In this document: positions 45,301 through 48,300 of the stretch, piece by piece
Numbering within the stretch: position 1 is the stretch's first letter
Layout: each line of letters begins with the position of its first letter
Made by a program: the position numbers
Assembly: GCF_022846255.1 (NCBI RefSeq)
Contig: NZ_AP025682.1
Strand: one strand, 5' to 3'
Length of the DNA stretch: 64,000 nt
Origin: Escherichia coli
Lineage (GTDB): Bacteria > Pseudomonadota > Gammaproteobacteria > Enterobacterales > Enterobacteriaceae

Positions 45301-48300
45301 CGTCGTTTGCATCTGCAGGGTATGACGGTTCCGGATTATACGGTGAAGGTGAGAAAGTGGTTTTGTGTGATGTGTGACGAAAATTATGAGGGGGAAAAGT
45401 GCTGCCCGAGTTGTGGTACCGGGGTATACAGCAGGGAGGGGGGGCAGGAGGGCAACTGGAAGGATAGGAACTGAGCGGTTCAGTCGCGGAAATCAGTTGC
45501 AGAGCTGTAATGATATCTCCGGGAGTGCTGCGTTGGTAGGGGCATCCCGGGATAGAGAAATTTTAGCACTTTGCCCTGAATGATTGTAGACGTCCCGAGT
45601 ACTCGTACCGGTCTGAGTTATTACAGTTAGATATTCACTTTTTCTCCCGCATACTTCACATCTGTCAACGACGGATGAAAAGTGGTTCTTCCGCAACCTG
45701 GGTGGAAGAAAATGGATGAAACTTTCTGGCGAACAAGGATCTAAGCTGTTTTAAGTTATGGGCAACGCAATGCACTCTCTTAAGACACTTCTACAGTTAC
45801 CTTGCGGATGGCGATGCAGTCGACAAATTATTAGCTCTGACGGTATAACCCTCCATCTCCACGGAAAACGCAAAACAGCACAATGTCCTGAATGCTTTAA
45901 GCGTAGCGACTCTGTTCATAGTTGTCGTCGGCGCCGGATACAGCATCTACCCTGCTCAGGGCAGACGCTATGGCTTGTATTTTCCGTCCGCCACTGGTAC
46001 TGCCGTAACCCGGCTTGTTCACGTAAAATTTTTGCCGAGTCGCTTGCTCCCTTCGCCAGTTCACACCAGCAGTCTTCACAGGCGTTACAAAATTAACAAT
46101 GTCAACTGGGATTAATAGCTGGAGGTGAGGCTGGAAAACGGGCTGCAACGGCAGTGGGTCTCCGTTGCAGTGCTGATACTCTTCTTCGCAGGCTTATCAA
46201 TACCCCGGAGACGAAACAGTCAGGCGCGCCTCATGTCGGTATTGATGAGTGGGCGTGGCATCGGGGCCACTGCTGCGGTATGTTAATAGTCAATCCTGAT
46301 ACTCACCGTCCCCTCGTCCTGCTTCCCGGCCGTGATCAGCGTACGCTGGCGACCTGGTTCAGAAAATATCCGGAAATACAGGTTGTCTCGCGTGATCGCA
46401 GTGGAGTCTATGCGACAGCAGCACGTGAAGGTGCACCTCAGGCCAGACAGGTGGCCGATCGATGGCACCTGCTAAAAAATATTGGTGATGAGCCTGAACG
46501 AATGATGTACAGACATATGCCTCTGATACGTCTTGTTGTCAGAGAGTTATCACTGAAGAAATCACCTGAGCCAGAAATATCTGTGCCTGTAGCATCGCTC
46601 CGTCGTCTGGAACGCCTTAAACAGCACATCCGCAAAAAACGGCATCAGCGTTGGACAGAGGTTATGGCCCTGCATAACAAGGGATGTAGTTTCAGGGAAA
46701 TATCCCGTATTACAGGCCTGTCGCGAGTGACAGTCAGTCGCTGGGTGGGTTCAGGAACATTCCCTGAAATGTCAACCAGGCCTCCAAAGCGAGGGCTTCT
46801 GGACCCATGGAGGGAGTGGTTAAAAGAGCAACGAGAATGTGGTAATTATAACTCCGGCCGGATATGGCGGGAAATGGTGGCCAGGGGGGTTACAGGCAGT
46901 GAAACCATCGTCAGGGATGCTGTTGCCAAATGGCATAAAGGCTGGATCCCACCGGTTACTACTGCCGCAAGACTTCCTTCAGTGTCCCGGGTAAGCCGCT
47001 GGTTGATGCCCTGGAGAATAATCAGGGGTGAAGAAAATTATGCTTTCCGATTTATTAGTCTGATGTGTGAAAAAGAACCGGAGTTGAAAATAGCGCAGCA
47101 ACTGGTACTCGAGTTCTACCGTATTCTGAAAACCTAAAATAAATCACAGCTAAGCAGCTGGTTCACTCGGGTCCACGAAAGCGGCTCAGCAGAACTTCGG
47201 TGCGTAGCTGCGGGGATGGAAGCTGATGCTGCGGCTATATGTGAGGCAATCAGCAGTCGCTGGAGTACTGGTGTTGTCGAAGGTCATGTAAATCGCCTGA
47301 AGGTGCTGATACGCCAGATGTATGGTCGAGCCGGACTTGAACTACTTAGGCGGAGGGTAATGAGTCCACTGGCATGAAAATCTTCACCTAGGTTGAGGAA
47401 GAGCCACTTTTGCACTGTTCGTGACAGTATGGCCTTTATGTACTCACTTTGTTACCGGTAGCTGGATCATCACTACCGTGCCGCAAATGGTGGTGAACAG
47501 CATCAATTGTGGAATGAATGTTGCCGAAGCGACCAATGCGCCTCGTTTCCACCATCAGTGGTTGCCGGACGAGCTGCGTGTTGAAAAGGGTTTAGTCCGG
47601 ATACGCTCAAGCTGCTGGAAGCAAAAGGTCAGAAAGTGGCGCTGAATGAGGCGATGGGCAGCACGCAAAGCATTATGGTTGGGTCGGATGGTGAGTTGTA
47701 CGGCGCATCCGACTCGCGCTTGGTGGATGATTTAACGGCGGGGTATTAATTGACATCCCCCGGCGCAATGTGCCGGGGGATAATGGTTTTATGCGGTCAA
47801 TAATCGTCCGGGATTATCGATACAGAGTTTTTTGAGGATCGTTTTATCGACGCCGCGCTCCGCCAGATAGGCCAGAAAAACATCTGGAACAAATCCCCAG
47901 CCATTACCGCCATTTTTAGCCCACATTTGTTTAAGGAAGACATCGTGGCTGAGAACAAGCTGATCGGCGTATCCCAACTCAATGAGATGAGCGACGGCAT
48001 CGGCAGTCTCCTGCACCCCTGGCGCTATTCCCTCTTTCGGGAAGGTAATGTCTAGGCCAATCATGTCGAATTCCAGCCAGACACCTTTATCAAGCATTTT
48101 CCGCTGATACGCCACGTCTTTTCCTGACGGATCCGAGTGTGCGAGAGAGACTTTATTTGGCGAGACGCCCATTTCACCTAACACAATGTCGAGTACTTCA
48201 TCACCGCGACGAAGCCAGCCCGGCATGTGAATATTCATCGCCACATGAGGATTGTTAATCTGTGCCAGCGAGGCAGCCCGCAAGCTGTTATGCTCGGCTT

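What the first reader, a model, noticed from the sequence alone, without database searches (positions are those of the whole stretch)
45758..47748. ISL3-family element with a disrupted transposase abutting a truncated ggt
The ISL3 transposase is recognisable in three pieces (zinc-finger N-terminus, DDE core, C-terminal HVNRLK...QMYGRAG motif) in different frames. Immediately after it comes only the last ~100 codons of a gamma-glutamyltranspeptidase gene, itself frameshifted. This marks an IS-mediated breakpoint that removed most of ggt.
Basis: partly seen in the sequence, partly recalled or inferred. Interest (0 to 1): 0.4.

Follow-up and report, generated by a model that had tools for sequence, protein, structure and literature searches.

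The report
Dead ISEc38 beside a ggt relic
This is an ordinary piece of genomic debris in an E. coli island: a dead copy of the known insertion sequence ISEc38 next to the last ~100 codons of a second, redundant ggt gene, inherited unchanged by about half of all E. coli while the working ggt sits intact elsewhere.

Summary
The features are real but ordinary, and RefSeq already annotates both as pseudogenes.

- **The IS.** Window 45663-47426 is a full-length (1,764 bp) copy of the ISL3-family element ISEc38. It is 95.2% identical to active plasmid copies, with no indels. Its transposase is not in three frames. It is one 540-codon frame broken by two in-frame TAA codons (46094, 47135).
- **The ggt relic.** About 24 bp of unexplained filler follows the IS. 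Then 47451-47749 is the tail (codons 478-580) of a ggt gene, carrying a 12-bp deletion and a 1-nt frameshift.
- **Which ggt.** This is not the cell's own ggt: 5,422 of 5,426 complete E. coli genomes keep a full-length resident copy. In Citrobacter and Salmonella diarizonae the same ggt / php-like / DMT / amidotransferase / PfkB block sits at the normal ugpQ-yhhA-ggt locus. The window therefore holds a transplanted, truncated fragment of that arrangement inside a CP4-44-type island.
- **The junction.** Active ISEc38 copies make 5-bp target duplications. This copy has none, and no empty site exists, so the IS marks a rearrangement breakpoint. The filler leaves open whether the IS itself cut ggt.
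- **Age.** Junctions and key lesions are identical across divergent lineages (about 47% of genomes), which indicates one old event followed by neutral decay.

The parts
45663..47426 (+). Complete-length but dead ISEc38-like insertion sequence (ISL3 family), 1,764 bp
   Evidence: Aligns end to end with intact ISEc38 on plasmid pE1246_1 (L002:1501-3264): 85 substitutions, 0 indels, 95.2% identity. Homology stops exactly at 45663 and 47426 (same ends).
45663..45704 (+). Left terminal inverted repeat (IRL)
   Evidence: the repeat finder pair I1: arms 45662-45704 / 47385-47427, 43 nt, 77% complementary. The outermost pair lies outside the IS as defined by homology.
47385..47426 (+). Right terminal inverted repeat (IRR)
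   Evidence: Same inverted-repeat pair. The IS homology ends at 47426.
45758..47377 (+). Transposase pseudogene: one 540-codon frame with in-frame TAA at 46094-46096 (codon 113, TTA in ISEc38) and 47135-47137 (codon 460, CAA in ISEc38)
   Evidence: Translation and frame check; codon comparison with intact ISEc38; NCBIfam NF033550 on each piece; RefSeq 'internal stop'. Pfam on the intact homologue: Zn_ribbon_ISL3 plus a split DDE_Tnp_ISL3.
47427..47450 (.). About 22-24 bp junction filler of unknown origin (GTATGGCCTTTATGTACTCACT..)
   Evidence: Matches neither ISEc38 nor K-12, Citrobacter or Salmonella ggt. No other occurrence with <=5 mismatches in 1.56 Mb of fetched sequence, and none in plasmids beyond the same junction. 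Identical in five E. coli lineages.
47451..47749 (+). Relic of a second ggt copy: codons 478-580 plus stop, with a 12-bp deletion after 47462 (between GGTAGC repeats) and a 1-nt deletion in the A-run 47584-47587 (frameshift)
   Evidence: NCBIfam NF007187 positions 478-531 and 546-581; alignment to K-12 ggt; blastn 92.5% over 47456-47749; RefSeq pseudogene 'frameshifted; missing N-terminus'.
47755..47781 (.). G+C-rich hairpin between the convergent ggt relic and the php-like gene (terminator-like)
   Evidence: Inverted repeat I12: 13-nt arms, 92% complementary, 1-nt loop. A hairpin of different sequence sits at the same place in Citrobacter and Salmonella loci (alignment).
47789..51929 (-). Four-gene block that travelled with the ggt tail: phosphotriesterase-related (47789-48823), DMT transporter (48826-49791), glutamine amidotransferase (49848-50606), DeoR/PfkB kinase (50620-51834), plus ~95 bp upstream
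   Evidence: ORFs; RefSeq products; same order and orientation next to full-length ggt in Citrobacter L004/L006/L007 and S. diarizonae L005. Nucleotide homology to those loci ends at ~51929.

Best explanation
SHOWN.
- Window 45663-47426 is a fossil copy of the known ISL3-family insertion sequence ISEc38. It is full length with both inverted repeats, but its transposase is killed by nonsense codons.
- It lies in a CP4-44-type genomic island next to tmaR/yeeA.
- To its right is a ~4.5-kb block (47451-51929): the last 103 codons of a ggt gene, then convergently a php-like / DMT transporter / amidotransferase / PfkB-kinase operon.
- This block is a fragment of an arrangement that Citrobacter and Salmonella diarizonae still have at the normal ugpQ-yhhA-ggt locus.
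- The cell's own ggt is intact elsewhere.

INFERRED.
- A copy of the block, from an Escherichia-lineage genome judging by divergence, was brought into the island.
- The 5' 82% of its ggt was lost in a rearrangement whose breakpoint is now occupied by the IS. The mechanism would be adjacent deletion by intramolecular transposition, or recombination between two ISEc38 copies.
- This happened once. The IS was then inactivated (CAA->TAA at codon 460), and the whole junction has since been inherited vertically by about 47% of E. coli, accumulating lineage-specific lesions neutrally.
- The relic has no function of its own.
For: - IS identity and ends.
- One frame with two TAA codons.
- ISL3 domains.
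- ggt tail identity and lesions.
- Resident ggt retained in 5,422/5,426 genomes, and annotated intact in relic carrier strain 779.
- Homology to resident ggt stops at the stop codon.
- Intact arrangement PfkB-GATase-DMT-php -> <- ggt-yhhA-ugpQ in three Citrobacter genomes (S. diarizonae has the same block and a convergent ggt, but its stored locus ends inside ggt).
- Divergence calibration: the relic is 81-83% and K-12 ggt 83-84% identical to Citrobacter/Salmonella, while relic vs K-12 is 92.5%.
- ISEc38 makes 5-bp target duplications (CCATG, AGTAC, and GTAAT / TCCCGG recovered across an IS-IS inversion), but the window copy has ACATC / GTATG.
- No empty site in 5,426 genomes; the left flank 45452-45662 is only ever seen attached to the IS.
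- No E. coli has a full ggt beside the php-like gene.
- Both junctions, the codon-460 TAA and both ggt deletions are identical in five lineages, while the codon-113 TAA, a codon-88 stop, a codon-66 stop and a 2-bp insertion are lineage-specific.
- dN/dS among chromosomal copies is about 0.6-1.9.
- About 2,529-2,580 of 5,426 genomes carry the junction.
Against: - About 24 bp (47427-47450) between the IS end and the first ggt base match nothing. A clean IS-mediated adjacent deletion or IS-IS recombination inside ggt would put ggt sequence directly against the IS end. The truncation of ggt may therefore have had another cause.
- No donor genome with a >95% identical full-length ggt next to this block was found. 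The species-representative scan returned the block beside ggt only in Citrobacter and Salmonella, which are too diverged to be the donor.
- The Escherichia-lineage origin rests on only 294 bp of a decaying pseudogene.
Confidence: 0.8

Rival explanations
1. The ggt copy was already truncated, for example at the edge of the DNA segment that was captured by illegitimate recombination, leaving the ~24-bp filler. ISEc38 arrived afterwards, and its other flank was later replaced by an IS-mediated event on the island side. On this reading the IS marks a breakpoint but did not remove ggt.
For: The filler 47427-47450 lies between the IS end and ggt and has no detectable source. The block's other end (~51929) also stops without a matching ISEc38 and is followed by unrelated IS66/IS3 debris. 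The island is a mosaic of several IS fragments.
Against: No ISEc38-free version of the truncated ggt was found in 5,426 genomes. Every copy of the truncation is attached to the IS. The absence of a target duplication requires at least one IS-associated rearrangement anyway.
Confidence: 0.3
2. One reading: the IS destroyed the organism's own ggt, so carriers lack gamma-glutamyltranspeptidase.
For: Only a ~100-codon ggt fragment lies at this locus.
Against: 5,422 of 5,426 genomes have a full-length ggt elsewhere. Relic carriers show two ggt places. In carrier strain 779 the resident ggt is annotated intact between yhhA and yrhB. The relic is only 92.5% identical to resident ggt and has different downstream DNA.
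Confidence: 0.02
3. The transposase is still made through stop-codon readthrough or recoding, because the 1,620-nt frame has no indels and the element keeps both ends. The IS would then be alive or domesticated.
For: There are no indels relative to active ISEc38 over 1,764 bp, both inverted repeats are present, and the element is retained in ~47% of E. coli.
Against: - The stops are TAA, and the copy sits at one fixed chromosomal site in all lineages sampled.
- Other lineages have added further independent stops and a 2-bp frameshift.
- dN/dS among chromosomal copies is near 1.
- Some lineages have truncated the IS to 173-758 bp or put IS2 into it.
- Retention is explained by vertical inheritance of a neutral relic.
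Confidence: 0.02

Closest known systems
ISEc38 (ISL3 family insertion sequence of E. coli plasmids and chromosomes)
   Same: Same length (1,764 bp), same ends and inverted repeats, same single 540-codon ORF layout, 95.2% nucleotide and 92% amino-acid identity. Same domains: Zn_ribbon_ISL3 plus DDE_Tnp_ISL3 split by an HTH insert.
   Different: Two in-frame TAA codons kill the transposase, there is no 5-bp target duplication, and the copy is fixed at one chromosomal site and drifting neutrally. At ~5% divergence it is a separate old sub-lineage of the IS, not a recent hop from a plasmid.
Resident E. coli ggt (b3447, gamma-glutamyltranspeptidase / glutathione hydrolase proenzyme)
   Same: The relic aligns to codons 478-580 at 92.5% nt identity and ends at the same stop position.
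   Different: It lacks codons 1-477 (82% of the gene), has a 12-bp deletion and a frameshift, has unrelated downstream DNA, and lies in a different chromosomal region, a CP4-44-type island near the his operon. It is a redundant second copy.
The ugpQ-yhhA-ggt / php-like-DMT-GATase-PfkB locus of Citrobacter spp. and Salmonella enterica subsp. diarizonae
   Same: Same gene order and orientation. ggt is convergent with the php-like gene ~50 bp away with a hairpin between. The four proteins are 80-96% identical.
   Different: In those genomes ggt is at its normal chromosomal locus, full length in Citrobacter. Nucleotide identity is only 74-83%, so they are cousins of the donor arrangement, not the donor.
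CP4-44 cryptic prophage / island of E. coli K-12 (yeeP-flu-yeeR-yeeS-yeeT-cbeA-cbtA-yeeW next to yeeX/tmaR)
   Same: Same chromosomal site (next to tmaR-yeeA-sbmC-dacD-sbcB) and the same yeeS-yeeT-cbeA-cbtA-yeeW module (the K-12 gene order is from established knowledge of the K-12 map).
   Different: This version carries additional cargo (dynamin-like / RdcB / patatin genes, zinc-ribbon genes, the ISEc38 relic, the ggt-tail block, an aspA/dcuA-like module) and several other IS fragments.

Membership tests
ISL3 family insertion sequence | DDE transposase of the ISL3 type (Pfam DDE_Tnp_ISL3 / NCBIfam NF033550) | tested here: met
   All three ORF pieces hit NF033550 at profile positions 1-77, 101-287 and 321-368 (E 5e-19, 2e-46, 8e-15). 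Each piece is below the 180-bit whole-protein cut-off only because the gene is split. The intact ISEc38 homologue hits PF01610 in two parts.
ISL3 family insertion sequence | N-terminal ISL3 zinc ribbon | tested here: met
   PF14690 Zn_ribbon_ISL3 at residues 40-84 of the intact homologue. The same CPEC...C..C residues are present in window codons 40-86.
ISL3 family insertion sequence | Terminal inverted repeats bounding the element | tested here: met
   43-nt arms, 77% complementary, at 45662-45704 / 47385-47427, coinciding with the ends of homology to ISEc38.
ISL3 family insertion sequence | Flanking target-site duplication (8 bp is quoted for the family, from memory of ISfinder, not tested) | tested here: not met
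   Active ISEc38 copies show 5-bp duplications (CCATG, AGTAC, GTAAT, (T)CCCGG). The window copy is flanked by ACATC / GTATG and by TTCACATC / GTATGGCC, so there is no repeat of 5 or 8 bp. This is read as a post-insertion rearrangement, not as evidence against family membership.
ISL3 family insertion sequence | Intact transposase ORF (needed for an autonomous element) | tested here: not met
   In-frame TAA at codons 113 and 460.
ISEc38 (same IS, isoform level) | Near-identical sequence, length and ends to the named element | tested here: inconclusive
   Same 1,764-bp length and ends, but 95.2% nt / 92% aa identity. That is borderline for 'same IS' versus 'close relative'. ISfinder's own reference sequence and naming thresholds could not be consulted. 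RefSeq labels plasmid copies 'ISEc38 family' and this copy only 'ISL3 family'.
Gamma-glutamyltransferase (NCBIfam NF007187 / TIGR00066) | Full-length proenzyme reaching the family's score cut-off | tested here: not met
   Only profile positions 478-531 and 546-581 of 581 are matched, at 87 and 55 bits against a 990-bit cut-off.
Gamma-glutamyltransferase (NCBIfam NF007187 / TIGR00066) | Autoprocessing / catalytic N-terminal threonine of the small subunit (Thr391 in E. coli GGT, from established knowledge) | tested here: not met
   The relic begins at codon 478, downstream of residue 391, so the nucleophile and the whole large subunit are absent.

The most novel reading that the evidence does not exclude
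The most novel reading not excluded: the ggt-tail plus php-like four-gene block is a surviving piece of the ancestral Escherichia ggt locus. On this view E. coli once had the Citrobacter/Salmonella arrangement, lost the block from the resident locus (now occupied by variable yrhB-yrhA-Hcp genes), and kept a copy only because it was captured into the CP4-44-type island. The relic ggt tail would then be a datable 'fossil' of that relocation. Separately, ISEc38's ~117-aa HTH insert inside the DDE domain and its 5-bp rather than 8-bp target duplication may define an undescribed ISL3 subgroup.
Probability: 0.3. Interest if true: 0.2.

Novelty: already known. Interest (0 to 1): 0.1.

Why it matters
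It matters little biologically. It is a neutral relic of a named IS and a redundant pseudogene, both already flagged by RefSeq.

Three practical points follow.

1. IS-typing surveys routinely list 'ISEc38' in E. coli isolates. In roughly half of all E. coli, at least one such hit is this fixed, dead chromosomal copy. It should not be counted as an active mobile element or as evidence of plasmid content.
2. The junction is a stable, single-origin marker present in about 47% of complete genomes. It could serve as a phylogenetic character for the history of the CP4-44-site island.
3. The synteny with Citrobacter and Salmonella shows that the php-like / DMT / amidotransferase / PfkB operon in this island was captured from a chromosomal ggt neighbourhood. 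That gives a clue to where this uncharacterised operon comes from.

Tried and rejected
- **Empty-site search.** The two flanks joined in silico (300 + 300 bp) were searched against 5,426 E. coli genomes. None covers both halves in one place.
- **Left flank alone.** Paralogous islands share it only up to 45451. The last ~210 bp occur only attached to the IS, so the original right-hand continuation of the island could not be recovered.
- **Chimeric probe.** K-12 ggt 5' of the breakpoint was fused to the window's ggt tail and php-like gene. No E. coli has a full ggt beside the php-like gene.
- **Source of the junction filler.** A Hamming scan (<=5 mismatches) over 1.56 Mb of window and loci, plus a permissive blastn against plasmids, found nothing beyond the same junction.
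- **8-bp target duplication typical of ISL3.** Not seen in any ISEc38 context. It was replaced by the empirically derived 5-bp duplication.
- **tRNA-linked integration.** There are no tRNA genes in the window.
- **Recoding or readthrough of the transposase.** Rejected, because other lineages add independent stops and a frameshift, and dN/dS is near 1.
- **Citrobacter or Salmonella as direct donor.** Rejected on divergence: 74-83% nt, against 92.5% to E. coli ggt.
- **Large protein-database searches, structure prediction and RNA tools.** Not used, because they could not change an ordinary verdict.
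Full report
**1. What is at the coordinates**

ORF listing and direct reading of 45400-48200 show three ORFs with ISL3-transposase similarity: 45758-46096, 46154-47137 and 47216-47377. Two short ORFs with gamma-glutamyltransferase similarity follow, at 47421-47645 and 47636-47749. NCBIfam places the three transposase pieces on positions 1-77, 101-287 and 321-368 of the ISL3 model NF033550. It places the two ggt pieces on positions 478-531 and 546-581 of the 581-position ggt model NF007187.

The window is E. coli chromosome. 45400-48000 is 100% identical to many complete genomes, including SMS-3-5, where RefSeq annotates 'ISL3 family transposase (internal stop)' and 'gamma-glutamyltransferase (frameshifted; missing N-terminus)' at exactly these places.

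**2. Correction: one frame, two nonsense codons**

The three transposase pieces start at coordinates with the same remainder mod 3. Translating 45758-47377 in one frame gives 540 codons with only two internal stops, both TAA: codon 113 (46094-46096) and codon 460 (47135-47137). Against an intact ISEc38 gene these are single-base changes, TTA->TAA and CAA->TAA, and there are no indels at all. The ggt tail, by contrast, really is frameshifted, by a 1-nt loss in the A-run 47584-47587. It also has a 12-bp deletion between GGTAGC repeats after 47462.

**3. Identity and limits of the IS**

Searches of E. coli genomes and of plasmids find full-length matches at ~95% identity annotated 'ISL3-like element ISEc38 family transposase'. 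Alignment with an intact copy on plasmid pE1246_1 fixes the ends at 45663 and 47426. The element is 1,764 bp, with 85 substitutions, 95.2% nt identity and 497/540 identical codons. The ends carry the 43-nt, 77% inverted repeat found independently.

Pfam on the intact protein shows Zn_ribbon_ISL3 (residues 40-84) and a DDE_Tnp_ISL3 domain split into residues 160-295 and 413-534 by a ~117-aa insert carrying a helix-turn-helix. The window copy has the same layout (an IS21-like HTH hit inside ORF 2).

ISEc38 is a named element that IS-typing surveys of E. coli list routinely.

**4. The ggt fragment is a second copy, not the cell's ggt**

- K-12 ggt is found full length (>=80% coverage) in 5,422 of 5,426 complete genomes.
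- Genomes carrying the relic show two ggt places.
- In relic carrier strain 779 the resident gene is annotated intact in the usual ugpQ-yhhA-ggt-yrhB context (the same strain carries the IS at 99.9%).
- The relic matches resident ggt at only 91-93% identity, and only from ~47451/47456 to the stop codon. The DNA beyond the stop is unrelated.
- It corresponds to codons 478-580 (and alignment), so 82% of the gene is missing, including the catalytic Thr391 (established knowledge).

**5. Where the fragment comes from**

No E. coli genome joins a full-length ggt to the php-like gene (chimeric probe).

A scan of one genome per bacterial species with the php-like protein found the same four-gene operon in several Enterobacterales. 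In three Citrobacter genomes, a full-length ggt (92% aa identity to K-12 Ggt) lies convergent to the php-like gene ~50 bp away and is followed by yhhA and ugpQ. Salmonella enterica subsp. diarizonae has the same block and a convergent ggt, but the stored locus ends inside the gene. The order there is PfkB/DeoR - amidotransferase - DMT - php-like -> <- ggt - yhhA - ugpQ. In those species the operon is simply the downstream neighbour of the resident ggt.

The window holds the same block with only the ggt tail. Nucleotide homology to the Citrobacter and Salmonella loci runs from the tail to ~95 bp upstream of the PfkB gene (~51929) and then stops.

Divergence calibration points to an Escherichia-lineage source rather than Citrobacter or Salmonella. 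The relic is 81-83% identical to Citrobacter/Salmonella ggt, K-12's own ggt tail is 83-84% identical to them, and the relic is 92.5% identical to K-12. This rests on only 294 bp of a decaying pseudogene and is an inference.

**6. Context**

The window is colinear with SMS-3-5 at the same coordinates from 3459 to 53344, so that annotation transfers. The order is:

- gnd-ugd-wzzB, the his operon, yeeZ ... sbcB-dacD-sbmC-yeeA-tmaR;
- a CP4-44-type island: yeeW, cbtA, cbeA, yeeT, yeeS, antirestriction, DUF932, patatin-like, RdcB-like, dynamin-like, GTPase, IS150, an inovirus-Gp2/YfjJ-like gene, and two zinc-ribbon genes;
- the ISEc38 relic, the ggt tail and its four-gene block;
- IS66 and other transposase fragments, an aspA/dcuA/racemase module, and a LysR gene.

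There is no tRNA gene in the window.

**7. Is the junction IS-mediated?**

For:

- Active ISEc38 copies make 5-bp target duplications. Examples are CCATG...CCATG on the M8 plasmid and AGTAC...AGTAC on pUTAK-3. Two further M8 copies have flanks that pair as GTAAT and (T)CCCGG once swapped, the signature of an IS-IS inversion.
- The window copy is flanked by ACATC and GTATG, so its flanks were never contiguous.
- No empty site exists in 5,426 genomes, and the last ~210 bp of the left flank occur only attached to the IS.

Together these support a rearrangement with the IS at the breakpoint, by intramolecular transposition giving an adjacent deletion or by recombination between two copies.

Against a simple 'IS cut ggt' story: ~24 bp (47427-47450) between the IS end and the first ggt base match neither the IS, nor any ggt, nor anything else searched. 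I therefore regard 'the IS marks the breakpoint' as supported and 'the IS removed the 5' part of ggt' as plausible but unproven.

**8. One old event, then decay**

In IHE3034 (B2), O104:H4, strain 12690 and HCM-27C-1, both junctions, the filler, the two ggt deletions and the codon-460 TAA are identical to the window. The private lesions are:

- the codon-113 TAA, found only in the window's lineage;
- a codon-88 stop plus a TGG->TGA change in the ggt tail, in IHE3034;
- a codon-66 stop, a 2-bp insertion and a broken php-like gene, in 12690 and HCM-27C-1.

Other genomes retain only the first 173-758 bp of the IS or have IS2 inserted in it. dN/dS among chromosomal copies is ~0.6-1.9 on small counts, against 0.37-0.47 versus active ISEc38. 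About 2,529-2,580 of 5,426 genomes (about 47%) carry the junction. This is the expected picture of a neutral relic inherited vertically.

**9. Verdict**

The finding is real at the stated place. It was mis-described in one respect (frames) and over-interpreted in another (loss of 'ggt'). It is a dead ISEc38-like IS at a rearrangement breakpoint next to the tail of a redundant, captured ggt copy. Both are already annotated as pseudogenes in RefSeq, and both belong to thoroughly known kinds.

The only modestly new points are:

- the origin of the block from a ggt-locus arrangement preserved in Citrobacter and Salmonella;
- the 5-bp target duplication and the split DDE domain of ISEc38;
- the practical caveat that 'ISEc38' calls in about half of E. 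coli genomes include this fossil.

Interest is low.

Noticed in passing
window 46643-46993 (codons ~296-412 of the transposase frame); L002:1596-3215: The ISEc38 transposase (539 aa, versus a 370-position NCBIfam ISL3 model) has its DDE_Tnp_ISL3 domain split in two by a ~117-aa insert. The insert contains a helix-turn-helix that also scores against the IS21 and IS630 N-terminal HTH models. I did not check whether this insert is described for ISL3 elements.
   Followed up: partly
L088 (pUTAK-3) and NZ_CP019954.1 (L094-L097) copies at 79864-81627, 95538-97301, 105962-107725: ISEc38 copies are flanked by 5-bp direct repeats (AGTAC; CCATG), not the 8 bp I recall for the ISL3 family. Two copies on the M8 plasmid have exchanged flanks (GTAAT and TCCCGG pair across copies), indicating an inversion by IS-IS recombination.
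   Followed up: yes
window 47755-47781; L004-L007 at the equivalent spacer: The spacer between the convergent ggt and php-like genes holds a G+C-rich hairpin in E. coli, Citrobacter and Salmonella. The stem sequences differ (ATCCCCCGGCGCA/TGTGCCGGGGGAT versus GCCCGG...CCGGGC), so structure is conserved without sequence, as expected for a shared bidirectional terminator.
   Followed up: partly
window 45452-45662: About 210 bp between the second zinc-ribbon gene and the IS occur in E. coli only attached to this IS. Paralogous islands share the zinc-ribbon gene but diverge at ~45451. The origin of this stretch is unknown. A 67-aa minus-strand ORF (45493-45696) runs from it into the IS end and is probably spurious.
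   Followed up: partly
plasmid-collection record NZ_CP079635.1 (H66/H261), 18489-20302: A 1.04-Mb record labelled as a Klebsiella pneumoniae 'plasmid' carries this E. coli chromosomal IS (99.9%) and IS/filler/ggt junction (100% identity). This suggests a mislabelled or chimeric record, or a large chromosomal transfer.
   Followed up: no
window 53345-53698 versus L001:19946-21471: The window differs from SMS-3-5 here. SMS-3-5 has a ~1.5-kb segment with an IS3-family transposase that overlaps its shortened (388-aa) aspartate ammonia-lyase-like gene. The window has 354 bp instead and a 466-aa ORF (53378-54778).
   Followed up: partly
window 30885-35250 (minus strand): The island carries a patatin-like phospholipase, an RdcB-family 'diguanylate cyclase regulator' and a ~800-aa dynamin-family protein in a row, next to a GTPase gene. 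This may be a defence- or membrane-remodelling-type module. The reading is taken from the SMS-3-5 annotation at identical coordinates and was not examined further.
   Followed up: no
window 26357-26730: The cbtA toxin gene of the CbtA/CbeA toxin-antitoxin pair is annotated as frameshifted in SMS-3-5 at these coordinates (99.8% identical to the window), while the antitoxin cbeA is intact. This was not verified in the window itself.
   Followed up: no
L086 and L087 (strains 12690, HCM-27C-1), locus 2730-2968 onward: In some lineages the php-like gene next to the relic is itself a pseudogene (internal stop / truncated). The captured operon is therefore also decaying in part of the species, although all four genes are intact in the window.
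   Followed up: no
L008-L022, L039, L043, L081 (Budvicia, Providencia, Proteus, Klebsiella spallanzanii, Citrobacter amalonaticus) and L023 onward (Actinomycetota): The php-like gene has close relatives (45-64% aa identity) across many Actinomycetota. In Providencia, Proteus and Budvicia the same four-gene operon exists without ggt beside it. The operon's substrate is unknown.
   Followed up: no
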